Positions 3,454 through 45,982 of a DNA stretch of 64,000 bases are shown here, piece after piece. This DNA is from Ktedonobacteria bacterium (lineage in GTDB: Bacteria; Chloroflexota; Ktedonobacteria; Ktedonobacterales; JACDGC01). Numbering within the stretch: the stretch's first letter is position 1; the number at the start of each line of letters is the position of its first letter. Where the stretch lies: positions 40,230-104,229 of the forward strand of contig DAIDGU010000056.1 in the NCBI GenBank assembly GCA_027459785.1. The letters are read 5' to 3'. A program made the position numbers and the translations under genes. A model generated the notes under the pieces. It was not told the DNA's origin, did no database searches, and was given only the letters and a program-made list of their open reading frames with translations.

Positions 3454-3526
3454 GAATAGTACCATGAGGACATGTGTTTTACCCGCGCAGGAGGACGACT
3501 GACCACAGTGCCGAGAAGTACCCTCC

Positions 3527-3582
3527 AGTCCGCGTCGGCGGACTTTGTGGCGTAGCCCCTAGGCGCGGTTTTAACCGCCCGC
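3527..3582. repeat. Dispersed repeat family C copy (AGTCCGCG.CGGACTT...CTAGGCGCGGTTTTAACCGCCCG)
   Basis: Matches copies at 10231-10340, 19869-19927, 45805-45982 and 55172-55222. Confidence 0.7.
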
Positions 3583-3640
3583 TCGCCCATCAACGTGTCG
3601 TGTGAATCGTTCGCTATTTGCCTATTCAAGAGGTGCCAGC

Positions 3641-10176: not shown

Positions 10177-10230
10177 CGCACGGCCCCACCCCCGGCCCCT
10201 CCCCATCTGCGGATGGAGAGGGGAGATCGC

Positions 10231-10340
10231 CAGTCCGCGCAGGCGGACTTCGTGGCCCACGGCCCTTAGGCGCGGTTTCAACCGCCCGCCGTCCCTGCCC
10301 CCGTCCCTGGCACATCATCAACCGCCCGCCGTCCCTGGGG
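10231..10340. repeat. Repeat family C copy followed by the tandem aaccgcccgccgtccctg unit
   Basis: cagtccgcgcaggcggacttcgtggcccacggcccttaggcgcggtttcaaccgcccg. Confidence 0.7.
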
Positions 10341-23929: not shown

Positions 23930-24039
23930 CCCACGGCTGGCAAGCGATCAGGGGGGCGTGGCCGCACGCCCCTTAAGCACTTTTACTCACTCCATGTGAT
24001 ACAGTATTGCTTAGCACATATTCTTGGAGGTAGCAAGCG

Positions 24040-24273
24040 ATGCAACATCCCCTAATTACATCCAATCCAAACATAATGCTCGGTAAGCCAGTGGTGGCCG
24101 GCACACGCATTACCGTCGAACATATTCTAGATGAACTAGGTGGTGGGCGCTCCTTCGATGAACTGCTGGAAGCGCATCCGCGCTTGACACGCGAAGGTAT
24201 TCTGGCAGCATTGGTCTACGCCGCTGACGCGCTACGCTCTGAGGTCGTCTATCCACTGGATCAGGCATCATGA
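24040..24273 (+). CDS. DUF433-family protein (putative antitoxin)
   Basis: 77 aa; the gene-pair arrangement is conserved with a DUF5615 partner; lower GC than the flanks. Confidence 0.65.
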   Translation: MQHPLITSNPNIMLGKPVVAGTRITVEHILDELGGGRSFDELLEAHPRLTREGILAALVYAADALRSEVVYPLDQAS

Positions 24274-24626
24274 AGCTGGTCGCTGATGAAAATATTGCCC
24301 AACCAATTGTTACCCGATTGCGCCAGGAAGGGCATGAAGTTATATATATTGCTGAAATATCACCAGCTATCCTTGATGATGCTGTCCTCGATGCGGCAAA
24401 TCAAGGCGATGCCCTTTTGCTTACAGATGATAAAGACTTCGGCGAACTGGTATACCGTCAGCATCATCAAACTCTTGGCGTTGTGCTCGTGCGTTTAGCG
24501 AAATTGAGCAATGCCGTGAAAGCCGGAACCATTGTTCGTGTTCTTGCTCAATACGATACCAGGCTTCTGCGCGCTTTCTCGGTTATCACACTAGGCGCGG
24601 TGCGCATCCGGCAACCACCACAGTGA
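24270..24626 (+). CDS. DUF5615 (Mut7-C/PIN-like) family protein (putative toxin)
   Basis: 118 aa; 4-nt overlap with the upstream DUF433 gene; PIN-like acidic residues (DEN, LLTDDKDF). Confidence 0.65.
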   Translation: MKLVADENIAQPIVTRLRQEGHEVIYIAEISPAILDDAVLDAANQGDALLLTDDKDFGELVYRQHHQTLGVVLVRLAKLSNAVKAGTIVRVLAQYDTRLLRAFSVITLGAVRIRQPPQ

Positions 24627-24640
24627 TCACGCTACTACCT

Positions 24641-26191
24641 TCACTCCCACTCAATCGTCGCCGGCGGCTTAGAGGTGATGTCGAAGACGACGCGGTTCAC
24701 GGCGGGGACTTCGTTGACGATGCGGTTCGCCACGCGGGCCAGCAGGTCATAGGGCAGCCGCGCCCAGTCCGCCGTCATGAAGTCGCCGGTGGTGACGGCA
24801 CGCAGCGCGACGACGTTGGCATACGTGCGGTAATCGCCCATCACGCCCACGCTACGCACGGGCGTCAGCACGGCGAAGGCTTGCCCTGTGGGGCGATAGA
24901 GATCGGCGGCGCGCAGTTCCTCGATGAAGATCGCATCCGCCGCGCGCAACGTCGCCAGCCGCTCTTCCGTCACCGCGCCGATGACGCGGATCGCCAGGCC
25001 GGGGCCGGGGAAGGGATGTCGCCAGACCCAGTCTTCGGGGAGGCCCAGTTCCGCGCCGACCGCACGTACCTCGTCCTTGAAGAGATAGCGCAGCGGCTCG
25101 ACCAACTGGAACTTTAGGTCGCTGGGCAGCCCGCCGACGTTGTGGTGGGTCTTGATCGTCTGCGCGGCGGCGGTGTCGTGGCTAGTACTCTCGATCACGT
25201 CGGGGTAGAGCGTCCCTTGCGCCAGGAACGGCACATCGCCCAGCTTGGCCGCTTCGCCCTCGAAAACGCGGATGAACTCCGCGCCGATGCGCTTGCGCTT
25301 CTCTTCGGGATCTTCCACCCCCGCCAGGCGTTCCAGGAAGCGAGCGCGAGCATCGGCCACGATCAGCGGGATGTGCATGTGGTCGCGGAAGGTCGCCGCC
25401 ACCTGTTCGCCTTCACCCTGGCGCAACAGGCCCGTATCCACGAAAACGCACGTGAGTTGATCGCCGACGGCGCGATGGATCAAGAGCGCAGCCACGGCGG
25501 AATCCACGCCGCCGGAGAGGCCGCAGATCACACGCCTGTCGCCCACCTGGGCTTTGATGCGCGCCACCGTTGCCTCGATCACGTTTTCCGTCGTCCACTC
25601 CGGCGCGCAGCCACAGATGCCGAAGAGGAAGTTTTCCAGCACCTGCGCGCCCTGCGGCGTATGCGCCACTTCGGGATGGAATTGCAGGCCTACCAGTCCG
25701 CGCGCGTGTCCCATTGCCGCCACCGGATTGCTGTCGGAGGTCGCCAGCAGCGTGAAGCCTTCCGGCAGCTCGGTGACGGAATCACCGTGGCTCATCCACA
25801 CGTGCAGCGAGGTCGAAGCGTCCAGCCCGGCGAAGATCGCGTCCTGCGGCGCGGGATGCTCGTCCGTCAGTGTGATCGTGGCCGGACCATATTCGCGCCG
25901 CCCCGTCGCCAACTGCACCTTGCCGCCCAGCGCCTGCGCCATCACCTGCATGCCGTAGCAGATCCCCAACACCGGCAAGTTGCTGGTGAAGATCGCCGCG
26001 TCGCACTGCGGCGCACCGGCATCATAGACGCTATTCGGCCCACCGGAAAGGATCACGCCCTGGCAACCACGCGCCCGCAAATCCTCCAACGTCGTCGTGT
26101 TCGGGACGATCTCGCTATACACCCGCGCCTCGCGCACGCGCCGAGCGATCAGGCGCGTGTATTGGGAGCCGAAGTCGAAGATGGCGATCAT
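24641..26191 (-). CDS. guaA: GMP synthase (glutamine-hydrolysing)
   Basis: 516 aa; GATase N-terminus [19 protein letters not shown]; PP-loop SGGVDS. Confidence 0.95.
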
Positions 26192-26329
26192 GGTGGGTCT
26201 GCTCTTTCTGAAGATTCCGGCACGTCATGCCGAGCGGCGCAGTGGCCTCAATGACCCCAGCGCGCATAATAGTCGTGTGTATTGGCTAGGTATTGATACT
26301 ATATCACCGAATTGACCAGTCTGGCTCAG

Positions 26330-26375
26330 GTGGCTGTCCTCTGGATGATAGCGTAATTACCCGCAAACGGTATTC
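26330..26375. repeat. Partial repeat family A copy
   Basis: ggctgtcctctggatgatagcgtaattacccgc matches the 32226-32262 segment. Confidence 0.5.
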
Positions 26376-26624
26376 CAGCGGATGGCGAAAGGATTGCTAT
26401 GCCGTCACCATCTCTACTTCACTATGCAGCGCGTGCGCTGTTTCCTGCAATGGCTATTGCAACGTTTCGATGCGCTGCTCCTTATCCTTGATCCGCTGAC
26501 GGAGGTCTATTTTGTTCTAGAAAAACTGGTATGGCTCCGAAAAAAAAACGTCTCATGCGTTTCCTCGGCACGTTTGGCAGAGCCTATGCGTCGCAAACGG
26601 TTAAGCTGAAGGAGGTGGGATACG

Positions 26625-26918
26625 ATGCAAACCTGGTTTCAAGATTTTCTGCATACGATGGAAGATGTCTTGCGTCGTATGGTGCGCGCGTTCGTCCTGT
26701 GGGGCGCGGTGATCACATTCGTCGCAACCGCATGGTTCAGCCTGGCTGTTCATCGTTTGCCGCGTGGCGGCGAATGGGGATTAGTCCTTGGCCTCTTCAT
26801 CGCTTCGGGTTTATTGGGGATGCTGGCCATCTTAGTATGGGAACTCTCGCATATCGGGCCGATCATGCGCGCCGTCAAGCGCCAGGATGAGCCACACATT
26901 ATCTATCACAACCGCTAG
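26625..26918 (+). CDS. Small membrane protein (hypothetical)
   Basis: Strong SD (AAGGAGGTG) 6 nt upstream; two predicted TM helices; preferred over the overlapping 26531..26890 frame. Confidence 0.45.
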   Translation: MQTWFQDFLHTMEDVLRRMVRAFVLWGAVITFVATAWFSLAVHRLPRGGEWGLVLGLFIASGLLGMLAILVWELSHIGPIMRAVKRQDEPHIIYHNR

Positions 26919-26989
26919 CACACATACCCTGCGGCAAGCGTACCAGCGTTCCACCCAACTGCCTGCCAGAAGTCACGCCCACAGCGCCG

Positions 26990-27388
26990 TCACGCTTCGG
27001 TTGCCGGCGGAGTATTGCCGCGCTCTAATCGCTCCACCCGCACCATAAGCTCATTATGGCGCTCTGCCTGTGCCGCGAACCCCTCGCGCATTTCTTTCAG
27101 CATCTCTTGCTGTGTCGCCTCGATATTACTGACCTTTTGTGTCAGCACGATGACAACGTCAGCCAGTGCCTTGATATCGTTCCTAAGTTCATTATCGCGG
27201 GTCAACGACTCCCGTCGGAGGGCTTCATCGCGGGCGATCGCTTCTTGCCGATCCACCCGCATTTGCGTCTTAATCTCGTCGGTTTGACCGTTGACAAAGG
27301 TGGTGATGCGCAGGAACAGACGATCAAGCGCCATCGTAAGCTGATCAGGGTAAATCGGTTGCTGCGGCGGTTGTGGTTGCGCGGCCAT
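26990..27388 (-). CDS. Coiled-coil hypothetical protein (paralog of 15535..15930)
   Basis: 132 aa; shares the MREGFAAQAERHNEL signature with 15535..15930. Confidence 0.5.
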   Translation of the reverse strand: MAAQPQPPQQPIYPDQLTMALDRLFLRITTFVNGQTDEIKTQMRVDRQEAIARDEALRRESLTRDNELRNDIKALADVVIVLTQKVSNIEATQQEMLKEMREGFAAQAERHNELMVRVERLERGNTPPATEA

Positions 27389-27552
27389 GAGCGTACTCCT
27401 CTCGTTGCTGAAAGCATACCATATTCACGCCCTCTTGTCGATGCACGGGGCGAACCCCAATGGATGCGTGCTATACCCCCTACGATGCAGCGTGGGGCTG
27501 CCGATATGATGAATAAGACGAGGCCGCGCCAGGATTTCCAGGAGGAAGCACC

Positions 27553-28020
27553 ATGAAAGTTGAGTTTATCAATCCCTTCGTCAAAGCCGCCATCGATGTA
27601 CTCAAATCGGAGATCGGGTCCGAGATTGAGCGCGGGCGATTGCGTGTGGATGCCAGCGCCAGCAGCAACCAGGATGTGAACGTGATGATCGGCGTCACCG
27701 GTGCCGCGCAGGGTTTCGTGCTGTATAGCATGGCGAGCGAGACGGCGAAAAACATTGTCGGCAAGATGATGGGCCAGCCCTTCGAGGAATTCGATGCGCT
27801 GGCGCAGAGCGGCATCGCCGAGATGGGCAACGTCATCACCGGCCTCGCCAGTCGTGGCCTCTCCGAGACCGGCTACATCTGCAACATCACGCCGCCCACG
27901 CTCATCACCGGCAAGCACACCACCATCGGCACGCTGGATATCCCCCGCCTGGCGCTGCCCCTCACCACCGTCTGCGGCATCATCGAGATTCACCTGGCCC
28001 TGCGCGAGATGGCCGCCTAA
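27553..28020 (+). CDS. cheX: CheX/CheC-like chemotaxis phosphatase family protein
   Basis: 155 aa; CheX signature (MKVEFINPFVKAAIDVLKSE...GNVITG); AGGAGG SD. Confidence 0.7.
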   Translation: MKVEFINPFVKAAIDVLKSEIGSEIERGRLRVDASASSNQDVNVMIGVTGAAQGFVLYSMASETAKNIVGKMMGQPFEEFDALAQSGIAEMGNVITGLASRGLSETGYICNITPPTLITGKHTTIGTLDIPRLALPLTTVCGIIEIHLALREMAA

Positions 28021-30931: not shown

Positions 30932-31954
30932 TTGGAGGAAAGCATGACAGATACAACCGCGAGGCCCTTGGCTGCCTGCCATGTTGCGGAAGGACAACAA
31001 GGCACATGGATCAATTCCTTTCTGCCACGCTACGAACCCTTTTTCTTTCAAGGAGAACAATTGGTCAACCGTTTGCTTAAGGCAGGATTGATTGTCTATA
31101 CGCGGCCTGAATTTCACGCGAGTTTTCCTCAGTTTGCCTTAGCGTATGGATGTACCTACCATCTCTGGGATGTTCCGCAGGATACCTATGTATGGATGGC
31201 TGATGCAACCCAACGGTTATACCTCGATGCGGATCTTTTGCAGGACATCCTGCGAGATCAGGTGCGATTGCACCGAGGTCAGGTGTATGATCACACGTGG
31301 TGTCTCCGCATACAGGACGAGGCAAAAATGTATGGCCTGCAGGAAAGGAGTTGGCAACAGCTTTTTCAGCGGTATCAGGTGTATGATGGGTCAACTCATT
31401 TCATCCTCACTCACGATTTGTGGACCGCTTTACCCCAGGGTGTGCAAGAAGCCTGGATCCTCGCATGGCTCAACGATCAATTAGTGGACGATGCGGTAGT
31501 GCCGATCAATCCGTGTGATGTCCCCGTCCCCGATTCACATCGACCGTTGGTGATGAAGTATAGCGGGCGCTTTGCGGATGCGAGCGGGGCCAATTGTTTT
31601 GCTGCGACGCTGGCGATGGCGATGGGTACGCTTGCCAAAACAGAGCATATCATTCATGTCTGGCTGCACCAGGAACCGTTTCTGCGTTCGCTGCGAGCGG
31701 CGGGGTATCATCCGGTACAGGAGATCCACCACGGAGACACGATCGATGCAATCAAGGCTCTAGATGTCCTGATCTGGGCAAACGGGGACGGCCACATCGT
31801 CCATGCGTCTTTTTGTGTGGCACCTGGATACGTCTTCAATAAAATGGGGCAAAGCTGGGAACAACCGTGGTTGATTCTGCGCATCGAAGATGTCCTCGAT
31901 TACAACCAGGTGATCTCTACAGAAGGAACCTTGATTGTGTATCGAAAGTCGTAA
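30932..31954 (+). CDS. Hypothetical protein with a possible papain/transglutaminase-like Cys-His core; compositionally atypical (~50% GC)
   Basis: GGAGGA SD; C-terminal SGANCFAATLAMAMG ... GDGHIVHA resembles a Cys/His catalytic pair; GC is well below the flanks. Confidence 0.5.
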   Translation: MEESMTDTTARPLAACHVAEGQQGTWINSFLPRYEPFFFQGEQLVNRLLKAGLIVYTRPEFHASFPQFALAYGCTYHLWDVPQDTYVWMADATQRLYLDADLLQDILRDQVRLHRGQVYDHTWCLRIQDEAKMYGLQERSWQQLFQRYQVYDGSTHFILTHDLWTALPQGVQEAWILAWLNDQLVDDAVVPINPCDVPVPDSHRPLVMKYSGRFADASGANCFAATLAMAMGTLAKTEHIIHVWLHQEPFLRSLRAAGYHPVQEIHHGDTIDAIKALDVLIWANGDGHIVHASFCVAPGYVFNKMGQSWEQPWLILRIEDVLDYNQVISTEGTLIVYRKS

Positions 31955-32266: not shown

Positions 32267-35200
32267 TTACGCCCCGTAATACACGAAGCTGGCCCAGTAG
32301 AGCGGATGGGCGAACGGCTTGTCTTCTGGCAGCGCGAAGTCGGCCAGGGTGAGGTCCGGATCGCGGGCGATGTCGTTGCCGTAATCGCGCGCCAGTTCGG
32401 CCTGCGACATGTTGCGCAGCCAGCGTTGGGCGTTGCGCAATGCCTGGGCCGGCTTCTGGTCCTGTCCCAGATAGAGTTCGGCGAAACGGCGCATCAGCAA
32501 CAGCGTGGCGAGATCGCTTGCGGGCCAGAGGCACGCCGCCACGCCACCCACACCGCCGGCCAGCATCGCCGCCGCCGGGCCGATGCTCTCGTCCGGTGCA
32601 TTGGCCGCCGACATCGCTGACTGCCCCGCGCTCAGCACCAGCACGCGCACGCCGCGCAGCCGCACCGCGCCCGTCAGCACATCCACGATTTTGAGCGCGC
32701 TGCCTTCAGCCAGTTCCAGGTACGATTCAACCGGGCGTTCGGGGTAGTACGCACTGGCACAGGCGAGGTGGATGTAGGCGCGTTCGGCCAGTGCTTTCTG
32801 CACCGCATCGGCATTGGCTTTGCGGCGAATGAGCAGCGTGCAGGACTGGCTGGAACGACTGGCGACCTGCGCGACAGCCTCGGCCTCGTGTTCGGCCCAT
32901 TCCAGCGCCACGCTGGCCGGCTGAGGATTGCCGATGGCGGCGACGCCGGACCGGAGTACCACGGCGGAAGCCGCGCGGGCCAGGCCCAGCCGTTGGGCAG
33001 AGGGCGCGCAGGTCACATCGAAAGCATCCAAAAAAACCGCATCGTCGCGCGTCGCCGGCTCCTCGGCCTCCTCGTCGCGCACGGGAGCCGCCGTGCCGAT
33101 GGGCGCGGCATGCAAAGGTAAAGTCGCCAGGCGTCCGGCGGGGATGAGCGCGACGCTGGTGAGCGTCAGCGCGTGTAGCCGCGCCGCGAGGGGCGCCATC
33201 ACCTGCTGGCCCAGCTCCGCCAACCAGCCGTCCAGGTTGGTCGGACGCGGCAGGTTGCCTAGCTGCGTCTTCACCACCGATTCAGCATCTTCAGCCTGGG
33301 GGGCTAGCTTGTCGATGGCGGCGGTCGTCAGGTCCGGCGCGAAGAGGATGTGATCAGCGCGCAAATCGCCCGCGCCGCCGGGGATGATCAGCGCCAGAGT
33401 TCCCTGCGTGGTCGTGGCCAGGTAGACCAATGCCTGGCCCTTGCCGCCCGCCGCACCCGCGATCTGGCGGAAGCTCAAGGCGGGATGCAGGAAATCCGCG
33501 CGGCTTTTGCGGATGGCGGCGACAGCGGCGTCGAAAGCCGCCTGGGCATTGCGGCGCTCGAAGGCCAGGTCGTCCAGGCTGCGCTGTAAGGTCGAGGGCC
33601 GGTCGTCCTGGCTCAGCCGCAGATTCTCGCTGGTGAGGTCGCCGCCCGCGCTGGTGATGCGCTGCGCGCTTTCATACATTGCCGCCAACTGTGCCTGGGC
33701 GCGCTCGAAGGCCACGCGCGCCGTCACCGGCACGGCCAGCAGCGTCAGGCGGTCGCGCTCCAGCATCTCATCCAGCGCGCGGGCGCGGCCCGCTTCCAGC
33801 CGCTGGGCGGCGTCGCGCGGGCGATTCAGCTTCAGCAGGCAAAAGGCGTCGTGTGCGACCATCTCGCCGTGTTCGCGCAGGCGCGGCGACGGCCCATCCA
33901 TGCCGATGCTCAGCATATAGAGTGTTGCAGAAGCGGCCAGCGCGCTGGCAAACATCTCGTGCGCCTCGGCCCAGCGTCCCAACTCGCAGAACAAAAGGGC
34001 CAGGTTGCGCGCCGTGCGGCGATGTTCGTTCGGGAAGGCGTCGCGCGTGCGAATGCGCAGGGCTTCCTGATAGCAGACGATGGCTTTGTTCTGATTTTCC
34101 GCCTGGTCGCCCACCACCCGTTCGCGGTAGGCGTTGCCAAGGTTGTTGCGCGTGTCGGCCCATTCCAGCGGCGACCGCTCGCGCGTCTGCACCAGCATGG
34201 ATTGCTCGTAATAGGCGATGGCTTGTTCAACATTATCGGCGTGGTTGCCGAAAAGGCGTTCGGTGTAGGCCACGCCCAGATTGTGGCAGATCAAGCCCCA
34301 TTGGTCGGGCGCGTTGGCCTGGGTGAAGTAAGTGAGGGCGGCCTCGAAGCCGGTGATCGCCTGCTCGATATTGCCCATGCGCGTGCCATTGACGCGCTGC
34401 CCATACGCATTGCCCAGGCTGAGCTGATCGGTCGCCCACTCGAAGGGGGCTTTTTCGCGCGTGCGCACGGTCATGGCAGCCTCGAAGGCGGCGATGGCGC
34501 GGTCCAGATTCTCGGCACGCGTGCCGACGCCACGCAGATAATACGCGCTGCCCAGCGCCTCTTGGGTCGCCGCCCACTCGATAGGAGACGTTTCGCGCGT
34601 GCGCACTTCCAGCGCGGCTTGCAGCGCCTCGATGCCCTGTTCCACGTTCAGCGCGTGGTCGCCCAACTCGCGGGCCATAAATGCCAGCCCCAGGTAATGC
34701 TGCGCCAGCGCCCAATCGCTGGGATATTCCAGCTTCGTGAAGATCTGCAATGACGAATCCAGCGCCTCGATGGCTTGCTCGACATTCTGTGTATGGTCGC
34801 CCGTCGGCACACGCGGCAAGATCAAGCCCAGTTCGCGCTGCAACGCCGCCCACAGCAGATCGTCTTGTTCGCGTGACGCCAGGTAGCTCGCCGCTTCGAT
34901 CAAGGCGACGCGCTGCTCCAGGTTGACGGCGGCATCCGGCGCTTCCAACTGCGCCAGCAGGGCATCCAGGTCGGCGGCGGGCGCGGCATGGGGCCAGGGC
35001 ATACGCTCAAAGGCGAAGGCGACGCCCTCGCGCTGCGCGACTTCCAGCGTTTGCAGATAGCGCGCCAGCACTTGCGACGCCGCTGGGCCGACTCGTTCCG
35101 CCACGCGGCTGACGTTGGCGCGCAGCAGCATCAGGGCGGTGTTCGTCAGCAGTTCGGGATGCGCCTCGACGACGGCGCGCGAGGCCTCCCAGTCCGGCGC

Positions 35201-35551
35201 ATTGACGAATTCTTCCAGGGCGCGAGCGACCTCTTCGGGATCGACCGGCGCGCCGGGGGGACGCGGTGGCGCGAATGGACGCGAATTGGGCCGCGCGCCG
35301 GCATACGGCTGATAGACGCCGGCACCGGCCAGGCGCTCGCGGTCGGCGGGGGTCAGGCGCGGCAACTCGGCAGGTTGCGGGGCCGGCACGGCGCGCAACG
35401 GCATGGTGGACGGGCCAGCATCCGGTTCGGTCAGCGGCTGATGATGGCCGCCGATATGGATGACCTCGACTTCGTTCGGCGGCGGCAACATCGGGTGAAC
35501 CGATGGCGGTGGCGAAGGGGGTGTTTGACGACGGCGAAAACGGCGAAACAT
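32267..35551 (-). CDS. TPR-repeat protein with a C-terminal CHAT (caspase-like) domain whose catalytic residues appear degenerate
   Basis: 1094 aa; many TPR-like units (LG.AY, EQAI.A.E.AL); C-terminal CHAT-like block YIHLACASAYYPE...VRVLVLSAGQS, where the consensus would be HLA.HG and LSAC. Confidence 0.75.
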   Translation of the reverse strand: MFRRFRRRQTPPSPPPSVHPMLPPPNEVEVIHIGGHHQPLTEPDAGPSTMPLRAVPAPQPAELPRLTPADRERLAGAGVYQPYAGARPNSRPFAPPRPPGAPVDPEEVARALEEFVNAPDWEASRAVVEAHPELLTNTALMLLRANVSRVAERVGPAASQVLARYLQTLEVAQREGVAFAFERMPWPHAAPAADLDALLAQLEAPDAAVNLEQRVALIEAASYLASREQDDLLWAALQRELGLILPRVPTGDHTQNVEQAIEALDSSLQIFTKLEYPSDWALAQHYLGLAFMARELGDHALNVEQGIEALQAALEVRTRETSPIEWAATQEALGSAYYLRGVGTRAENLDRAIAAFEAAMTVRTREKAPFEWATDQLSLGNAYGQRVNGTRMGNIEQAITGFEAALTYFTQANAPDQWGLICHNLGVAYTERLFGNHADNVEQAIAYYEQSMLVQTRERSPLEWADTRNNLGNAYRERVVGDQAENQNKAIVCYQEALRIRTRDAFPNEHRRTARNLALLFCELGRWAEAHEMFASALAASATLYMLSIGMDGPSPRLREHGEMVAHDAFCLLKLNRPRDAAQRLEAGRARALDEMLERDRLTLLAVPVTARVAFERAQAQLAAMYESAQRITSAGGDLTSENLRLSQDDRPSTLQRSLDDLAFERRNAQAAFDAAVAAIRKSRADFLHPALSFRQIAGAAGGKGQALVYLATTTQGTLALIIPGGAGDLRADHILFAPDLTTAAIDKLAPQAEDAESVVKTQLGNLPRPTNLDGWLAELGQQVMAPLAARLHALTLTSVALIPAGRLATLPLHAAPIGTAAPVRDEEAEEPATRDDAVFLDAFDVTCAPSAQRLGLARAASAVVLRSGVAAIGNPQPASVALEWAEHEAEAVAQVASRSSQSCTLLIRRKANADAVQKALAERAYIHLACASAYYPERPVESYLELAEGSALKIVDVLTGAVRLRGVRVLVLSAGQSAMSAANAPDESIGPAAAMLAGGVGGVAACLWPASDLATLLLMRRFAELYLGQDQKPAQALRNAQRWLRNMSQAELARDYGNDIARDPDLTLADFALPEDKPFAHPLYWASFVYYGA

Positions 35552-35823: not shown

Positions 35824-37308
35824 TTACACCTTGGGGTACGAGACGAAGACCGTCTTGACCTCGCTCCACTCGTCGATGGCGTCGGGGCCGAGTTCGCGGT
35901 GGCCGTTGCCACTGTGCTTGACACCGCCGAAGGGCAGGTGCGGCTCCGCGCCGGTCGTGCCAGCGTTGAGATAGATCAGGCCGGCCTGGATGTCGTGCAT
36001 CGCGCGGAAGGCGTTGCGCATATCTTCGGTGAAGATCGCGCAGGAAAGGCCATATTCCGTGCTGTTGGCGACGGCGATGGCCTGGTCATAGCTATCGACC
36101 GGCAAAACGGCGACGACGGGGCCGAAGATCTCTTCGCGGGCGATGCGCATTTCCGGCGTGACATCGGTGAAGACGGTCGGCTGGAAGAAGGCACCCTGGT
36201 CCAACTCGCCGCCGCGCGCCGGTCCGCCGCCGGTGATGAGCTTCGCGCCCTCGCCTTTGCCGATGTCGATGTAGGCATCCACCGCTTGCACGCGGCCCCG
36301 ATTCACGAGCGGCCCCATGTCCACGGCGGTGTCGAGGCCGTCGCCCAGCTTCTGTTTCTGCGCCAGCGCCACCAGGCGCTCGTTGAAGGCATCCACCACG
36401 GCGCGGTGGACGATGACGCGGCTGGTCGCGGTGCAACGTTGGCCGGTGGTGCCGAAGCCGGCCCAGGCCACAGCGGCGGCGGCTTCGTCCAGGTTGGCAT
36501 CGTCCATCACGATGATGGCATTCTTGCCGCCCAGTTCCAGCGTCACACGGCGCAGATCGCGCCCGCAGATCTCGGCGACGTGCTGGCCTACCTCGGTCGA
36601 ACCGGTCAGCGAGATCATGCTGACGCGCTGGTCGCTGGCCAGGGCATCGCCCAGCGTGCCGCCGGGGCCAGTGATGAGGTTCAGCACGCCGGGCGGTAGG
36701 CCGGCCTCATGCAGGATCTCCACCAGTTTGAGGGAGAGCAGCGGTGTGTCGCTGGCCGGCTTGAGGATGACGGCGTTGCCGGCGACGAGCGCGGGGAAGG
36801 TCTTCCAGGCAGGGATCGCCAGGGGAAAGTTCCAGGGGGTGATGATGCCGACGACGCCCAGCGGCTCGCGCAGCGTCAGGCACATTTTGTCGCGCAGCGC
36901 GGATGGCACCGTGCGGCCCTCGGCCTGCCGCCCAGCGGCGGCGACGAATTTGCCGAAGTCGATGGCGGTCTGAAGATCGCCACGCGCTTCTTTGAGGACT
37001 TTGCCCATCTCGCGCGTCAGCAGCCGCGAGAGTTCCTCGCGGTGCTGTTCCAGCAACAGCGCGGCGCGCAAGATGACTTCGCCGCGTTCCGGCGCGGGAG
37101 TGGCCCGCCAGGCGGGGAAAGCTTTTTGCGCGGCGGTGATGGCGCCATCGAGATCCGCGACGGTGGATCGCTGAAACGCGCCAAGCACTTCGCTTTCGTG
37201 GGCCGGGTTCGTATCCAGGAAGGTGGTGCCGCTGACGGAGTCGCGCCACTCACCCCCGATAAAGTTTTGATAGACGGTCGGGGCGGTCATCGCCGATGCG
37301 CTCGCCAT
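35824..37308 (-). CDS. NAD(P)-dependent aldehyde dehydrogenase
   Basis: ALDH motifs (FIGGEW, the catalytic Cys in the GQRCTA context, ELGGKNA); the start is taken at the internal Met (MASASAMTAPTVYQNF). Confidence 0.85.
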   Translation of the reverse strand: MASASAMTAPTVYQNFIGGEWRDSVSGTTFLDTNPAHESEVLGAFQRSTVADLDGAITAAQKAFPAWRATPAPERGEVILRAALLLEQHREELSRLLTREMGKVLKEARGDLQTAIDFGKFVAAAGRQAEGRTVPSALRDKMCLTLREPLGVVGIITPWNFPLAIPAWKTFPALVAGNAVILKPASDTPLLSLKLVEILHEAGLPPGVLNLITGPGGTLGDALASDQRVSMISLTGSTEVGQHVAEICGRDLRRVTLELGGKNAIIVMDDANLDEAAAAVAWAGFGTTGQRCTATSRVIVHRAVVDAFNERLVALAQKQKLGDGLDTAVDMGPLVNRGRVQAVDAYIDIGKGEGAKLITGGGPARGGELDQGAFFQPTVFTDVTPEMRIAREEIFGPVVAVLPVDSYDQAIAVANSTEYGLSCAIFTEDMRNAFRAMHDIQAGLIYLNAGTTGAEPHLPFGGVKHSGNGHRELGPDAIDEWSEVKTVFVSYPKV

Positions 37309-37718
37309 CGAACAGGCTCCTCGTAACACTACGCGGCGGCGGTGCGCCGTCGCACACGCGGAGCTGGCACCGGGCCGGGGATGTCCCCCCCAGTATATCA
37401 TGTTGCCAAAAGGCGTTTCTGGTGGGGTGGTGGGGAATTTATGGCGGATCGGCAGGACCGACTACTATCAACCCTGCAAGCTGGGCTACATCACGCAGGC
37501 TCGTATCGGCAGTGACGAAGATTGGCGAAGGAAGATTTTGCGCTAGTTGCCTTTCCTCGCAATAAAGCACGCTAGCTAGCTGTACGGCATCATAAGCCCG
37601 CAGCCCAAGAGAAACATACGTTAAGGTCTGCGCAGCTTTTACTTTTTTTTAAGAGTATTATCTTTAAAGTGGGCGGTGTACCGCTGATATGAACCGAAGA
37701 AAGTAAGGAACAAAGCGA

Positions 37719-38726
37719 ATGAGCAAAACCAGAAAGTGGGAAGCAGTTTTAAGGCGTTTTTTTGATGGTTTTTCTTTGGTTGGGGGTATTTTATTTATAA
37801 GTGGATTGCTTTTGCTTGTACTCGCAACGGCATTGAAAATCGTCTGGCTGCATGATGCAGGGGGGACATTATTTGTTGCCGGTCTCTCATTAACTATATC
37901 TACAGCAATCAGCAAGGAGGCAGTTCGACAACAGTATGCTAAGGAGGCGAATGTTCGGCGGAAAGAAATCCTCTATGGACCACTTTACACAGAACTCAAG
38001 CAACTGTGGGAGCGATTTGATCAGGCAAGTCGAGGCCTGTCCCCATATCCTCATTGGATTTTTGGAGTAGGAAATGTGCCATCTCCACTCGGTCTTGTCC
38101 CCCCTTATAAAGTGGGTACAACTTTCAAATGTTGGCCAGAATTTAAGGATAGTCATTATCTCGATCAGTTTACTAAAGGGGCTTATCAGCTATTCAATGA
38201 GGTTCAAAAACTTGCGGCTACATATAATAAAGCTGTTGTTCAAGCACTGACGCGAAACTGCGAAATCCTGCAACCATATCTTGTCTCAGCTACCGAAGGT
38301 ATCAAGAATAGTTCTGAATATCGGGAATGGCAACAACAGAATGAAGTTGGAACGAGGATAAGAGTCGAGAAGGACGATTGGTACGAGCGAGTTGAAAGAA
38401 TCTCTATGACCGTTGGCCAAGAGGAAGCACAAATGTGGCTAGATGATTTCTGGGTGCTTGGATGGATTCTGGCTAATAGTCAAGAAAAAGCTGCAATTAC
38501 TGTTCAGAACGGCTATCACTCTATAAGTTTAAGCCTCGTACCGTTAACTTGGTCTCAAGAAATTTTTCAGCATGCATGGGTTGAATTGAACAAGCTTCCT
38601 GAGAATCAGGAAATACAACAAGTGGCAACACTGTTATTTGAAAAAGTCCGCATGGCAAAAGATCTAGTTGAGTCAAGTCTTCGATATATTCGGGATCATT
38701 ATGAAGGTGGAGAGCCTCTTGTATAG
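37719..38726 (+). CDS. Orphan two-TM membrane protein encoded in an AT-rich (~42% GC) island; no recognisable domain
   Basis: 335 aa; N-terminal TM helices (FSLVGGILFISGLLLLVLATAL; TLFVAGLSLTISTAI) then a ~250-aa soluble domain; strong composition break at 37560-38760. Confidence 0.6.
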   Translation: MSKTRKWEAVLRRFFDGFSLVGGILFISGLLLLVLATALKIVWLHDAGGTLFVAGLSLTISTAISKEAVRQQYAKEANVRRKEILYGPLYTELKQLWERFDQASRGLSPYPHWIFGVGNVPSPLGLVPPYKVGTTFKCWPEFKDSHYLDQFTKGAYQLFNEVQKLAATYNKAVVQALTRNCEILQPYLVSATEGIKNSSEYREWQQQNEVGTRIRVEKDDWYERVERISMTVGQEEAQMWLDDFWVLGWILANSQEKAAITVQNGYHSISLSLVPLTWSQEIFQHAWVELNKLPENQEIQQVATLLFEKVRMAKDLVESSLRYIRDHYEGGEPLV

Positions 38727-39045
38727 GTTCATTGTAGCAGACTTCCCTGCCCGGCTCATGAAGGGATGACCACTGACACGATGAAGGTCGCCACATACAT
38801 GCATGTGGTGGGTGGGATCGATGCCGATCCAGGCGCTGAGGCTGTGATTGTTCTGCACGGCCACGTAGCCCAGCGTGGGCGCGCCGTCACACTGCTCGCC
38901 GTAAGTGACGATAGGATCGAGGTAGGTGTTGTAGCAAATCGTGGTACTCCCCCTTCAGATCTCCCCCATGCTTGCCGATGTGCATGGGTGACAGGATCGG
39001 CGACATCTTGGCAAACGCGCCGCCACCGGAAAGGGAGATTCACTC

Positions 39046-39846
39046 ATGATGCAGCGTTCGCATCTCGTGGGAAATGATTATAGCTGGCAGCGGCCCATCG
39101 CCGTCGCTGCGTTGCCGCGCGTGGCACCCCCCCCGCGCCCCCCGCGTTGGTGGTGGCTGGCGCAGCCCGGCTGGCGGCAGGCGATCTGCGCCCTCGTGCT
39201 CGTCGCCACGCTGGCGGGGGGCGGCGTCGGCCTCTGGCGGGCGCTCGCGCCGGCACATGCCGGCTGCCCGACGTATACCATCCGCTGGGGGGATACGATG
39301 TGGCAGATCGCGGCGCGCTTCCACACCGACACCTGGACCCTGGCGCGGCTGAACCACATCGCTAACCCGAACCTGATCATCGCTGGCCAAACGATCTGTG
39401 TCGCCGCGACACCCAACTATCAGCCGCAGCCGACGTATAGCGATCCGCTGCAATGGAGCAACCGGCCCGAAGTGCGGGCGATGCTCATCGCCGCCGCCGA
39501 CCGGCACGGGTTGCCGCGCAACCTGGTGCTGGCCATCGGCTGGCGCGAGAGTTCGTGGGTGCAGCACGTCATCTCGTGGGATGGCGGCGTGGGGACGATG
39601 CAACTGATGTCTTACACCACCGCCTGGCTGAATGGCTATCTGGGGACACAGTACAATCCCGACCGGCTCTATGACAACATCGAGTTGGGCGTGTCGTACC
39701 TCGCCATCCTCTGGCGCGACTTCCGCGGCTACCTGCCGGATATCATCAGCGCCTATAACGAGGGCGAGCGCGGCGTGCGCACCTACGGCATCTTCAACTG
39801 GTGGTACGTCAATTCCGTCTTCGCGCTCATGCGCGCCTTTGGCTAG
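39046..39846 (+). CDS. LysM-domain lytic transglycosylase (SLT domain)
   Basis: TM anchor; LysM (YTIRWGDTMWQIAARF...LARLNHIANPNLIIAGQTI); SLT ES-GxMQ motif (RESSW...GTMQLM). Confidence 0.8.
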   Translation: MMQRSHLVGNDYSWQRPIAVAALPRVAPPPRPPRWWWLAQPGWRQAICALVLVATLAGGGVGLWRALAPAHAGCPTYTIRWGDTMWQIAARFHTDTWTLARLNHIANPNLIIAGQTICVAATPNYQPQPTYSDPLQWSNRPEVRAMLIAAADRHGLPRNLVLAIGWRESSWVQHVISWDGGVGTMQLMSYTTAWLNGYLGTQYNPDRLYDNIELGVSYLAILWRDFRGYLPDIISAYNEGERGVRTYGIFNWWYVNSVFALMRAFG

Positions 39847-39883
39847 TTATGCTACAATCTCCCCAGAAGAGAGAGTGGCAGGG

Positions 39884-39988
39884 AGGGACGGAACGCGAAA
39901 TAGCGCGAGATTGGCGCGAAATCACACGGCAACTTGCCAGTATTTCGCGTTTTCTCGCGCTCATTTCGTGGCATTTCGCGTTCCGTCC
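39884..39988. repeat. Repeat family B palindrome (CGCGAAA/CACGAAA units)
   Basis: ggacggaacgcgaaatagcgcgagattggcgcgaaatcacacg ... tatttcgcgttttctcgcgctcatttcgtggcatttcgcgttccgtcc. Confidence 0.7.
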
Positions 39989-40045
39989 TTTCTTCTTGTA
40001 AGTGCTCCCACCCTTTGTCATATATTCGCAAAGGAGCGTAGAGAG

Positions 40046-41191
40046 ATGACGACGGCGACACACGTGGAAGAAGAGCGCATGATCCTCGATACCGTCCGCA
40101 AGCTGGCGCAGGAGCGCGTGGCCCCGCGGGCGGCGGAGATCGACGCGACGGGCGAGTTCCCGTGGGATATGAAAGACCTGCTGGCGGAAAACGGCATTCT
40201 GGGCCTGCCTTTCGCGGAGGAGTATGGCGGCATCGGCGCGAGCGAGCTGACGATCCTGAAAGTGATCGAGGAGCTATCCAAGGCGGACGCGACGACGGGC
40301 CTCTTGCTGGCGGTACAGCAGCTTGGCTCGCTGCCGATCATGCTGGCCGGCTCGCCGGAGCAGAAAGAACGCTACTTCCCGAAGTTGGCGGCGGGCGAGT
40401 GGCTGGCGGCGTATGGGCTGACGGAACCCGGCTCCGGCTCGGACGCGGGCGCGATGAAGACGCGCGCCGACAAGCAGGGCGACACGTATGTGCTGAACGG
40501 CCTCAAACATTTCATCACCAATGCTGGCCTGGCACATGTCAACGTCATCTTCGCCAAGACGGATACCAGCGCGCCCGGCACGCGCGGCATCAGCGCCTTC
40601 ATCGTGGAAAGCGACCGACCCGGCTTCCGCTTGGGGCGCGTCGAAAACAAGATGGGCATTCGTGGCTCCCAGACGGGCGAACTGGTGATGGAGGACTGCG
40701 TCATCCCGGCGGCGAACCTGCTGGGCCGCGAGGGCGAGGGCTTCAAGATCGCCATGATGACCCTGGACCGCACCCGTCCCGGCGTGGCGGCGCAGGCGCT
40801 GGGCATCGCGCAGGGCGCGCTGGATGTCGCCGTCAAGTATGCCAAGGAGCGCGTGCAGTTCGGCAAGCCCATCGCGGAGAATCAGGGCATCCAGTTCATG
40901 CTGGCCGATATGGCAACGGAGGTCGAGGCCGCGCGCCAGTTGCTCTACCATGCCGCCGACCTGATCGACGCAGGTGCGCCGAATTTCGGGCGCTTTTCCG
41001 CGATGGCGAAGATGTATTGCTCTGATATCGCCATGAAGGTGACGGGCGACGCCGTGCAGATCCTCGGCGGCTACGGCTACATGAAGGAGTTCCCCGTCGA
41101 GCGCATGATGCGCGACGCTAAGATCTGCCAGATCTATGAGGGGACCAACCAGATCCAGCGCGTCGTCATCGCGCGCGATCTGCTGCGATAA
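40046..41191 (+). CDS. Acyl-CoA dehydrogenase
   Basis: About 381 aa from the internal ATG with AAAGGAG SD; ACAD motifs (YGLTEPGSGSDA, QILGGYGY, catalytic E in YEGTNQIQR). Confidence 0.9.
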   Translation: MTTATHVEEERMILDTVRKLAQERVAPRAAEIDATGEFPWDMKDLLAENGILGLPFAEEYGGIGASELTILKVIEELSKADATTGLLLAVQQLGSLPIMLAGSPEQKERYFPKLAAGEWLAAYGLTEPGSGSDAGAMKTRADKQGDTYVLNGLKHFITNAGLAHVNVIFAKTDTSAPGTRGISAFIVESDRPGFRLGRVENKMGIRGSQTGELVMEDCVIPAANLLGREGEGFKIAMMTLDRTRPGVAAQALGIAQGALDVAVKYAKERVQFGKPIAENQGIQFMLADMATEVEAARQLLYHAADLIDAGAPNFGRFSAMAKMYCSDIAMKVTGDAVQILGGYGYMKEFPVERMMRDAKICQIYEGTNQIQRVVIARDLLR

Positions 41192-45804: not shown

Positions 45805-45982
45805 CGGGCGGTTGCAATCCCACGAGGAACGGCGGGGCGGAGGGGCGGGTAAGGACGGCGGGCGGTTGAAACCGCGCCTAAGGGCGTTCCGCCACAAAGT
45901 CCACCTACGTGGACTGGAGTTTAGTCCGCGCAGGCGGACTTCGTCGCCGTTAGGCGCTTAGGCGCGGTTTCAACCGCCCGCA
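45805..45982. repeat. Repeat family C: two copies in inverted orientation forming a ~170-bp palindrome
   Basis: cgggcggttgaaaccgcgcctaagggcg...ccacaaagtcc // agtccgcgcaggcggacttcgtcgccgttaggcgcttaggcgcggtttcaaccgcccg. Confidence 0.7.

What the first reader, a model, noticed from the sequence alone, without database searches (positions are those of the whole stretch)
37560..38760. AT-rich single-gene island encoding an orphan two-TM protein
About 1.2 kb at ~42% GC sits in a ~65% GC chromosome, with sharp boundaries at ~37560 and ~38760. It encodes one 335-aa protein (37719..38726) with two N-terminal TM helices and a ~250-aa soluble domain that has no motif I can recognise. This compact, compositionally foreign, single-gene architecture is typical of horizontally acquired abortive-infection or standalone defence genes, or addiction modules. 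The island lies between an aldehyde dehydrogenase and a LysM-transglycosylase. A probable gene remnant (38756-39043, minus strand, ...GEQCDGAPTLGYVAVQNNHSLSAWIGIDPTHHM...) abuts its 3' edge, which suggests the insertion disrupted a pre-existing gene.
Basis: partly seen in the sequence, partly recalled or inferred. Interest (0 to 1): 0.72.

Follow-up and report, generated by a model that had tools for sequence, protein, structure and literature searches.

The report
Foreign two-TM candidate anti-phage gene cassette
A 1.1-kb low-GC stretch is a horizontally acquired single gene from a small, unnamed protein family that sits next to restriction enzymes in other genomes, so it is most likely a new membrane-acting anti-phage (abortive-infection) gene, though no one has tested this.

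Summary
Window ~37622-38732 has GC 0.42 (ORF GC3 0.35) against 0.64 in the flanks (neighbour GC3 0.85-0.87). It carries one intact 335-aa ORF (37719-38726) with an N-terminal 2-TM hairpin.

Orthologous loci in close relatives (90-99% nt identity in the flanks) lack the gene. One has an intact 350-aa gene there. Another has a vapBC-like pair plus a TIR-TPR cassette.

The island replaced the 5' part of a vapBC-like module; a vapC 3' remnant remains at 37439-37621(-). It was truncated on its far side by a separate, older event shared with a relative that lacks the island.

The protein is not an orphan: 116 cluster representatives match it. It has no hit in Pfam, NCBIfam, PHROGs or PADLOC and no solved-structure relative (AF2 pLDDT 92, all-alpha).

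Two lines of evidence point to defence. Homologues lie directly after hsdS, MmeI-type R-M and GmrSD genes, beside DUF4062/SIR2, and inside a phage. In some members the 2-TM hairpin is replaced by the LmuA/Avs2-type nuclease effector or by DUF4062, a TIR-like NADase.

Best reading: a single-gene abortive-infection protein with a TM-hairpin effector and a new ~270-aa helical sensor domain. Function is inferred, not shown.

The parts
37622..38732 (+). Foreign low-GC cassette core: about 97 nt of AT-rich leader, the ORF, and 6 nt after the stop codon.
   Evidence: GC is 0.42 against 0.64 in the flanks. The cassette is absent from the orthologous loci L008/L010 and L011. Its junctions were placed by pairwise alignment. 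The left edge is uncertain by about 15 nt.
37705..37709 (+). Shine-Dalgarno-like AAGGA, 9 nt before the ATG.
   Evidence: Read directly from the sequence. The consensus scan found no sigma-70-type promoter on the + strand.
37719..38726 (+). 335-aa ORF, a member of an unnamed family (2-TM hairpin plus a ~270-aa all-helical domain ending in I[RQ]xxYEGGxPxV).
   Evidence: ORF. Homologues. The AF2 model has pLDDT 92.3 and pTM 0.85. The protein aligns full length, including the conserved C-terminal tail.
37767..37910 (+). Codons for the TM hairpin: TM1 at about residues 17-39 and TM2 at about residues 47-64 (Gly/Ser/Thr-rich; G48, G49, G53 and G55 are conserved).
   Evidence: Hydropathy, AF2 helices H2-39 and H42-104, and conservation in A3. 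Basic residues flank both ends, which predicts an N-in/C-in topology (inference from the sequence).
37926..38723 (+). Conserved C-terminal helical module (residues ~70-335), the proposed sensor/regulatory domain.
   Evidence: The A5 HMM matches one 272-position module in every family member. This includes the nuclease-fused and DUF4062-fused forms. The conserved positions show no catalytic-type motif.
37439..37621 (-). 3' remnant (about 60 codons plus the stop) of a PIN/VapC-like toxin gene, truncated by the cassette.
   Evidence: The translation reads ...LRAYDAVQLASVL...FVTADTSLRDVAQLAGL...*. The stretch 37433-37540 aligns to the end of the vapC-like gene in L011 at 74%. A chimera of the L011 N-terminal part and the window C-terminal part spans PIN profile positions 1-118 of 120, with E=0.0015, which is below the gathering cut-off.
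38733..38934 (-). 3' remnant (last ~55 codons, frameshifted) of a 350-aa secreted repeat-protein gene that is intact in relatives.
   Evidence: 76% nt identity to L008 8672-8862 and 93% to L011 906-1036. The translation matches the L008 C-terminus ...EQCDGAP(A/T)LGYV...DP(A/T)HH...VATFIV* with one frameshift.
38935..38945 (.). 11-nt junction scar. Here L008 carries 1042 bp (the rest of the 350-aa gene), and L011 carries a 4.15-kb TIR-TPR + 248-aa cassette.
35824..37308 (-). Aldehyde dehydrogenase, the native left flank.
   Evidence: 90% nt identity to L008 6954-8551, whose product carries PF00171. GC3 is 0.85.
39046..39846 (+). LysM + SLT transglycosylase, the native right flank.
   Evidence: The exact protein occurs in L011, and a >=90%-identical cluster member in L008-L010 carries PF01476 + PF01464. 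GC3 is 0.865.

Best explanation
The segment ~37622-38732 is a minimal, horizontally acquired gene cassette: leader, one ORF, and almost nothing else. It landed in a hypervariable spot between the aldehyde dehydrogenase and LysM-SLT genes and overwrote vapB and the 5' part of vapC.

Its 335-aa product belongs to an uncharacterised family built as a variable N-terminal effector plus a constant ~270-aa all-helical C-terminal module. In the window protein, and in most members, the effector is a 2-TM hairpin with a small-residue-rich second helix.

Proposed mechanism (inferred):
1. The cytoplasmic helical module senses a phage-derived cue, or loss of a host function.
2. It then drives self-association.
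3. The TM hairpins assemble into a membrane lesion that depolarises and kills the infected cell before phage release (abortive infection).

What is shown:
- foreign origin and insertion history;
- the family and its domain architecture;
- co-location with defence genes;
- replacement of the TM hairpin by known defence effector domains.

What is inferred:
- the sensing role of the C-terminal module;
- oligomerisation;
- membrane damage;
- any anti-phage phenotype.
For: Foreignness:
- GC and GC3 contrast.
- Absence from orthologous loci of relatives at 90-99% identity, with alternative cargo at the same site.
- The gene's GC is also below its contig's GC in L018, L020, L021 and L030.

Family:
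- 116 representatives, with full-length alignments and conserved motifs.

Defence neighbourhoods, in mutually divergent members:
- Immediately downstream of type I hsdS: L017 (start overlapping the hsdS stop) and L025.
- Downstream of MmeI-type R-M enzymes: 4 nt in L023 and L024, ~250 nt in L022.
- 85 nt after GmrSD in L018.
- Between two GmrSD_N genes in L012.
- Next to a second DUF4062 protein and SIR2_2 in L015.
- Opposite-strand insert beside a phage portal gene in an IMG/VR contig, L021/L032.
- Next to integrases in L001 and L003.

Effector swaps:
- P0065/P0078/P0083 carry, in place of the TM hairpin, a domain matching the N-terminal effector region of LmuA (E to 1e-19) and of Avs2 (E to 8e-10).
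- P0069 carries DUF4062 (35 bits, above the cut-off) and matches PDC-S60.
- DUF4062 is reported to be a TIR-like NADase effector of the single-gene defences Swarozyc and Evangelion, whose C-terminal auxiliary region is required and (for KpSwz) is activated by the phage portal (bioRxiv 10.64898/2026.05.01.722283; 10.64898/2026.06.25.731849).
- LmuA N-terminal regions are the Lamassu effectors (bioRxiv 10.1101/2025.04.02.646746).

C-terminal module:
- Conserved positions are W, Y, F, P, G and one E, not a catalytic set.
- In L015, two adjacent DUF4062 proteins share the effector (79% identity over 183 aa) but differ in the C-terminal domain. That is what a specificity module would look like.
Against: - No experiment exists for any member.
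- The window protein itself hits no PADLOC model.
- In the window the gene is not next to a recognised complete defence system. There is only a decayed TA remnant, a CHAT-TPR gene 2 kb away, and an allelic TIR-TPR cassette in L011.
- The closest relatives (L001/L007) have a conserved 140-aa upstream gene that the window lacks, so a partner requirement in that sub-lineage cannot be excluded.
- The context sample is small (~13 independent lineages) and comes mostly from short metagenome contigs.
- No promoter was found by the consensus scan.
- Several family copies are pseudogenes (P0003, P0005, L028-L030).
Confidence: 0.55

Rival explanations
1. The product is a membrane protein carried by a mobile element or prophage that acts without killing the host. 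It could work as superinfection exclusion, for example by blocking DNA entry or interfering with phage lysis timing.
For: - One homologue sits as an opposite-strand insert next to the portal gene of a phage-like contig.
- Others lie near integrases, an excisionase-like HTH_17 gene, or ImmA/IrrE.
- The protein is membrane-anchored.
Against: - The bulk of the protein is predicted to be cytoplasmic.
- The same module is fused to cytoplasmic toxic effectors: an LmuA/Avs2-type nuclease domain and the DUF4062 NADase. That fits a killing effector better than an entry block.
- tblastn found no homologue in 50,697 sequenced phages.
- Foldseek found no match in BFVD.
Confidence: 0.13
2. The product is an accessory or 'guard' of restriction systems. 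It would be held inactive by, or would monitor, an adjacent R-M or type IV enzyme and fire when phage anti-restriction proteins disable it, as PrrC does with EcoprrI. In the window it would then be an uncoupled leftover.
For: - The gene is tightly coupled to the preceding restriction gene: overlapping stop/start after hsdS in L017, 1 nt in L025, 4 nt after MmeI-type genes in L023 and L024, and 85 nt after GmrSD in L018.
- The MmeI linkage persists over 72-87% protein divergence.
Against: - The partners belong to three mechanistically unrelated restriction classes.
- Many members have no restriction neighbour (L001, L003, L007, L016, L021 and the window). A specific physical partnership is therefore unlikely.
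- Defence-island clustering explains the adjacency equally well.
Confidence: 0.1
3. The gene is a hitch-hiking cassette that is functionally inert or decaying in this genome. The ORF is intact, but it is not expressed or lacks what it needs, and it is awaiting loss.
For: - No recognisable promoter or terminator.
- No mobility gene and no flanking repeats.
- The locus is littered with remnants.
- Several family copies elsewhere are truncated or frameshifted.
- The upstream 140-aa gene seen in the closest relatives is missing.
Against: - The ORF is full length, with every family-invariant residue and the C-terminal tail intact.
- It has a good RBS.
- The unameliorated GC3 of 0.35 in a genome at 0.85 argues for recent arrival, not long decay.
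Confidence: 0.1
4. The product is the toxin of an addiction (toxin-antitoxin) module, or a solitary membrane toxin.
For: - It sits where a vapBC-like module used to be.
- A DUF433 antitoxin-like gene lies downstream in L017.
- TM-hairpin proteins can be toxic.
Against: - There is no adjacent small partner ORF in the window.
- Neighbours upstream and downstream are not homologous across loci.
- At 335 aa with a large conserved non-membrane domain, it is unlike type I or type II TA membrane toxins.
Confidence: 0.04
5. The product is an ordinary housekeeping membrane sensor or scaffold of the host lineage, for example a helical-bundle signalling protein.
Against: - It is absent from the same locus in close relatives.
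- Codon composition is extremely foreign.
- Only one of 185,579 species-representative genomes matched the pattern scan.
- It has no output domain.
- The helical domain is predicted to be cytoplasmic, not periplasmic.
Confidence: 0.03

Closest known systems
Swarozyc / Evangelion single-gene DUF4062 defence proteins (bioRxiv 10.64898/2026.05.01.722283 and 10.64898/2026.06.25.731849)
   Same: These are one polypeptide with an N-terminal toxic effector and a required, diversified C-terminal auxiliary region that confers sensing. They are spread by HGT and lie in defence islands. One member of the present family (P0069) has exactly this layout, with DUF4062 followed by the family's C-terminal module.
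   Different: The window protein has no DUF4062 domain; its N-terminus is a 2-TM hairpin. The family's C-terminal module gave no sequence or fold match in the PDB copies searched.
N-terminal nuclease effector domain of Lamassu LmuA and of Avs2 (PADLOC models PDLC03851, PDLC02161-02166)
   Same: Three to four family members carry this domain where the window protein has the TM hairpin. This shows the same 'swap the effector, keep the rest' logic described for LmuA (bioRxiv 10.1101/2025.04.02.646746).
   Different: Only the effector region matches (LmuA model positions 24-185 of 343; Avs2 positions 17-173 of ~1500). No SMC-type LmuB/LmuC partner and no STAND ATPase is present. The window protein lacks the nuclease domain altogether.
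Transmembrane abortive-infection effectors, e.g. TM effectors of CBASS and Pycsar, or RexB (recalled from the literature, not tested here)
   Same: These have short N-terminal TM helices attached to a cytoplasmic regulatory domain and are thought to kill by membrane disruption after activation.
   Different: They are activated by a second-messenger synthase or a partner protein encoded alongside. No conserved partner exists for this family. PADLOC, which holds those models, gave no sequence similarity.
Defence-island / integration hotspots with alternative cargo
   Same: The same intergenic site carries different cargo in close relatives: a 350-aa gene; vapBC plus TIR-TPR; or this gene.
   Different: No integrase, tRNA, att repeats or transposase is present at this site. 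The exchange mechanism is not visible.

Membership tests
Any curated protein family (Pfam-A, NCBIfam, PHROGs) | Profile-HMM score at or above the curated cut-off. | tested here: not met
   The best hits are far below cut-off: DUF3040 at 12.4 bits against 24.7, and SCO2097_fam at 17 against 110. PHROG E-values are >=0.034. None of the 47 aligned members hits a Pfam family over the shared module.
Known or candidate anti-phage systems in PADLOC-DB v2.0.0 | Significant match of the protein to a PADLOC model. | tested here: not met
   The window protein's only hit is a chance-level Cas11 match (E=0.014). The 2-TM members give no hit at E<=0.001. Hits are confined to the swapped N-terminal domains of 5 members. 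Newer DefenseFinder/PADLOC releases could not be searched.
Evangelion / Swarozyc (DUF4062 defence) | Presence of the DUF4062 (PF13271) TIR-like core with its catalytic Glu. | tested here: not met
   The window protein has no DUF4062 hit. Only the paralogous family member P0069 has one, at 35.1 bits against a cut-off of 24.7.
Evangelion / Swarozyc (DUF4062 defence) | C-terminal auxiliary region homologous to that of characterised members. | not testable with these tools
Profile and fold searches of the PDB copies gave nothing.
Horizontally acquired genomic islet | Composition deviating from the host genome. | tested here: met
   GC is 0.42 against 0.64, and GC3 is 0.35 against 0.85-0.87.
Horizontally acquired genomic islet | Absence from the orthologous locus of close relatives. 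| tested here: met
   L008/L010 (90% identical flanks) and L011 (99% identical right flank) lack it.
Horizontally acquired genomic islet | Mobility signature: integrase or transposase, tRNA target, flanking direct or inverted repeats. | tested here: not met
   There are no meaningful flanking repeats. The only tRNA is 36 kb away. The island has no recombinase ORF.
Defence-island gene (guilt by association) | Homologues recurrently adjacent to known defence genes in unrelated genomes. | tested here: met
   Neighbours include hsdS (twice), MmeI-type R-M (one lineage, three contigs), GmrSD (twice) and DUF4062+SIR2_2. The sample is small and no background statistic was computed.
Toxin-antitoxin / addiction module | Cognate partner gene adjacent and conserved with the toxin. 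| tested here: not met
   The window has no partner ORF. Neighbours are not homologous across loci, except for a 140-aa gene in one sub-lineage.
PIN/VapC toxin (for the left-hand remnant 37439-37621) | PIN profile match with the four conserved acidic residues. | tested here: inconclusive
   The chimera of the L011 N-terminal part and the window C-terminal part spans PIN positions 1-118 of 120, but scores 19.5 bits against a cut-off of 23.6 (E=0.0015). The motifs FLDTS / E / AYDAVQLA / FVTAD are visible in the translations. The remnant alone gave no hit.

The most novel reading that the evidence does not exclude
The ~270-aa all-helical C-terminal module, ending in the near-invariant tail I[RQ]xxYEGGxPxV, may be a previously undescribed phage-sensing and oligomerisation domain. 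It would define a new family of single-gene abortive-infection systems with interchangeable effectors: a 2-TM pore-former, an LmuA/Avs2-type nuclease, or a DUF4062 NADase. The window gene would be its membrane-effector form, recently captured from a much lower-GC donor into a cargo-swapping hotspot.
Probability: 0.45. Interest if true: 0.7.

Novelty: new variant of a known kind. Interest (0 to 1): 0.55.

Why it matters
If the inference holds, this is an unnamed anti-phage family with a new sensor fold, found mainly in poorly studied soil bacteria (one host is recorded as a Chloroflexi MAG). Its three natural effector versions would make it a clean system for asking how one sensor module drives membrane, nuclease and NADase outputs. 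They would also help identify the phage trigger.

The locus itself is a compact, well-resolved example of cargo turnover at one chromosomal site. Three allelic states occur in near-identical backgrounds, and remnants date the order of events.

The practical value is modest until a phenotype is shown.

Tried and rejected
**Searches that led nowhere**
- Profile searches with the word-indexed database, using A2 and then the C-domain-only A5, returned only 4 proteins each.
- The first genome-contig scan found nothing. The A3 scan found a single Chloroflexi MAG.
- Exact-sequence look-ups of the window protein and of GuaA, meant to name the source genome, failed. The organism stays unidentified.
- AFDB fold libraries were not available.
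- The PDB sequence search with the family profile gave only chance hits.
- tblastn against plasmids and phages found nothing.
- The Rfam and tRNA scans found nothing relevant near the island.

**Ideas tested and rejected**
- I looked for a conserved partner gene. The L001/L007 140-aa protein and all other neighbours are absent from the window and are not shared between loci.
- I looked for att-like repeats, inverted repeats, promoters and terminators. Nothing beyond chance was found.
- I tested whether the 11-nt scar at 38935-38945 derives from the L011 TIR-TPR cassette. There was no informative match, so the order of gain and loss there is unresolved.
Full report

Yes.
- In 200-nt windows, GC falls from 0.63-0.70 to 0.385-0.49 between about 37500 and 38800, then returns to 0.59-0.78.
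- No other 1-kb bin of the 64-kb window is below 0.515.
- ORF 37719-38726(+) is intact and 335 aa long. An AAGGA sits 9 nt before the ATG.
- ORF GC3 is 0.348, against 0.848 and 0.865 in the two flanking genes.

The protein hits nothing above noise in Pfam-A, PADLOC, NCBIfam or PHROGs.

**2. Where exactly are the edges, and what was there before?**

The LysM-SLT protein of the right flank led to orthologous loci in relatives.

*L008/L010 (about 90% nt identity across the aldehyde dehydrogenase and about 89% across LysM-SLT).* The order is Aldedh(-), an intact 350-aa gene(-), then LysM-SLT(+). There is no low-GC segment.

*L011 (99.3% identical to window 38946-40766).* From left to right it carries:
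- a small two-gene pair, 101 aa plus a frameshifted 91-aa PIN-like protein;
- the same 3' remnant of the 350-aa gene;
- a 4.15-kb insert encoding a TIR-TPR protein (1066 aa; TIR_2 70 bits) and a 248-aa protein;
- LysM-SLT.

*Right junction.* Window 38733-38933 aligns to L011 839-1036, so host-lineage DNA resumes 6 nt after the ORF's stop codon.

*Left junction.* Window 37433-37540 aligns to L011 82-187. The minus strand of 37439-37621 reads ...LRAYDAVQLASVLYCEERQLAQNLPSPIFVTADTSLRDVAQLAGLIVVGPADPP*, which is the C-terminal third of a PIN/VapC toxin. I joined the L011 N-terminal part to this window part. The chimera spans PIN profile positions 1-118 of 120 at E=0.0015, 19.5 bits. That is below the 23.6-bit cut-off, so the assignment is probable, not certain.

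The foreign core is therefore about 37622-38732 (GC 0.42). It replaced vapB and the 5' two-thirds of vapC.

But its stop-codon end faces the island. Its broken end lies at 38934/38946, and L011, which has no island, shares both breakpoints. That truncation is an older, separate event.

*Mobility.* No flanking repeats, recombinase or nearby tRNA mark the cassette. How it was inserted is not visible.

**3. Is the protein an orphan?**

No.
- The word-indexed search found only four relatives at 48-66% identity, all in soil metagenomes.
- An exhaustive phmmer pass over 1.84 billion cluster representatives found 116 at E<=1e-3, 84 at <=1e-10 and 29 at <=1e-30.
- Forty-seven full-length members align end to end (A2).

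Most members share this layout:
- a basic N-terminus;
- two TM helices, the second rich in Gly/Ser/Thr;
- a juxtamembrane AKEANLRRK..Y.PL motif;
- a helical domain whose conserved positions are almost all W, Y, F, P or G;
- a near-invariant C-terminal tail, I[RQ]xxYEGGxPxV.

With A2 as its alignment, AlphaFold2 gives a confident all-alpha model with pLDDT 92.3 and pTM 0.85. It shows a TM hairpin (helices 2-39 and 42-104) whose second helix runs on into a helical bundle.

No library gave a useful structural relative:
- Foldseek against PDB: best E=0.16, with TM-scores of 0.25 or less among the best-ranked hits.
- BFVD: nothing.
- The family profile against PDB sequences: nothing.

Basic residues on both sides of the hairpin predict a cytoplasmic N-terminus and a cytoplasmic helical domain. 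That is an inference from the sequence.

**4. What points to function?**

*Neighbourhoods.* The members listed here are mostly 21-37% identical to each other, so most are independent observations; the three MmeI-linked contigs (83-87% identical) count as one lineage.
- Type I hsdS: in L017 the gene's start overlaps the hsdS stop (Methylase_S 29.6 bits, above cut-off). In L025 the gap is 1 nt (61.9 bits).
- MmeI-type R-M: the gene follows a complete enzyme by 4 nt in L023 and L024, and by about 250 nt in L022. This is one lineage, and the linkage persists over 72-87% protein identity.
- GmrSD: 85 nt downstream in L018, a contig recorded as a Chloroflexi MAG. In L012 the gene lies between two GmrSD_N genes, and an HTH_17 gene lies further upstream on the contig.
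- DUF4062 and SIR2: the L015 member is followed by a second DUF4062 protein and a SIR2_2 protein.
- Phage: in L021/L032, an IMG/VR contig, it is an opposite-strand insert next to the portal gene (Phage_portal 85.6 bits).
- Mobile elements: L001 and L003 carry tyrosine recombinases, and L016 an ImmA/IrrE-type peptidase.

No neighbour is conserved across loci, apart from a 140-aa gene confined to L001/L007. That gene is absent from the window.

*Domain swaps.* The C-terminal ~270 residues form one module in every member (A5 HMM).
- In P0065, P0078 and P0083 (and the truncated P0030), the TM hairpin is replaced by a domain that matches the N-terminal effector region of LmuA (model positions 24-185 of 343; E to 1e-19). 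It also matches the N-terminus of Avs2 (E to 8e-10).
- In P0069 the hairpin is replaced by DUF4062 (35.1 bits, cut-off 24.7). This region also matches PADLOC candidate PDC-S60 at 2.7e-54.

Three preprints give these domains a function:
- The LmuA N-terminal region is the Lamassu effector (bioRxiv 10.1101/2025.04.02.646746).
- DUF4062 is reported to be a TIR-like NADase in the single-gene defence Swarozyc. Its C-terminal auxiliary domain is required, and the phage portal activates the enzyme (bioRxiv 10.64898/2026.05.01.722283).
- Evangelion is reported to have a conserved DUF4062 core and diversified auxiliary regions (bioRxiv 10.64898/2026.06.25.731849).

In L015 the two adjacent DUF4062 proteins share 79% identity over the first 183 residues but have unrelated C-terminal parts. 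That pattern fits the C-terminal part setting specificity.

**5. Most likely mechanism**

What is shown:
- a recently acquired single-gene cassette;
- a modular family with a constant helical module and interchangeable N-terminal parts, two of which are known defence effectors;
- repeated placement among restriction and other defence genes.

What is inferred:
- The helical module is a non-enzymatic sensor or regulator, because its conserved set has no catalytic-type motif.
- Activation causes self-association.
- In the 2-TM form, the hairpins then assemble into a membrane lesion that stops the infected cell. The small-residue motifs in TM2 would suit helix packing.

I put about 0.55 on this defence/abortive-infection reading as a whole, and about 0.95 on the horizontal-acquisition part.

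Rivals:
- a non-lethal membrane function carried by a prophage or mobile element;
- a guard or accessory of restriction systems;
- an inert hitch-hiker;
- a TA toxin;
- a housekeeping sensor.

Each is listed with its evidence in the Rival explanations section.

**6. Comparison with known systems**

It works like single-polypeptide 'effector plus sensor' defences. Swarozyc and Evangelion are the nearest in layout, and one paralogue literally has that layout. It also resembles TM-effector abortive systems.

The window protein is not a member of any of them. It lacks DUF4062, lacks the nuclease domain, hits no PADLOC model, and has no conserved partner. I therefore rate it a new variant of a known kind: an unnamed family with a new C-terminal module.

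I could not check DefenseFinder or PADLOC releases later than v2.0.0, or the AFDB.

**7. Limits**

- The source organism is unidentified.
- The context sample is small and has no background statistic.
- The PIN assignment is sub-threshold.
- No promoter was found.
- No expression or phenotype data exist.

Noticed in passing
window 3498-3583, 10184-10295, 19868-19935, 45853-45981 (an inverted pair); also L008 5287-5385 and 10937-10992, L009 5666-5794, L011 1-42: A dispersed intergenic repeat of about 60 nt, with core CCAGTCCGCGnCGGCGGACTTCGTGGCG...GCCCTTAGGCGCGGTTTCAACCGCCCG and two short hairpin-forming stretches. It is conserved between this genome and its relatives and looks REP/MITE-like.
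   Followed up: partly
window 30932-31954 (+): A second compositionally low ORF (340 aa, GC about 0.49-0.55), convergent with the CHAT-TPR gene. Its function was not examined.
   Followed up: no
window 32267-35551 (-): A 1094-aa TPR-CHAT protein (CHAT 126 bits) lies left of the aldehyde dehydrogenase, where relative L008 has a cellulase gene. Synteny therefore breaks on both sides of the dehydrogenase.
   Followed up: partly
L011 1037-5188 (corresponds to window junction 38934/38946): A 4.15-kb insert with lower GC (0.41-0.55) encodes a TIR-TPR protein (1066 aa) and a 248-aa protein with no family hit. It sits exactly at the deletion scar of the 350-aa gene.
   Followed up: partly
L008 8706-9758 (-) and window remnant 38733-38934: The displaced native gene encodes a 350-aa protein with a signal-peptide-like N-terminus and about six repeats of a W(T/D)GTDxxHxLN motif. 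It has no Pfam hit.
   Followed up: no
L015 1051-5705: Two tandem DUF4062 proteins have near-identical N-terminal domains (79% over 183 aa) but unrelated C-terminal domains, and a SIR2_2 gene follows them. This looks like a small array of one effector with different sensors.
   Followed up: partly
L001 8130-8759: Downstream of the closest homologue lies a 209-aa ORF that is also low in GC (0.476 on a 0.56 contig) and has no family hit. It may be co-transferred cargo.
   Followed up: no
window 23000-24700 and 26200-27700: Further moderate GC dips (0.51-0.59) occur elsewhere in the window. They were not examined.
   Followed up: no
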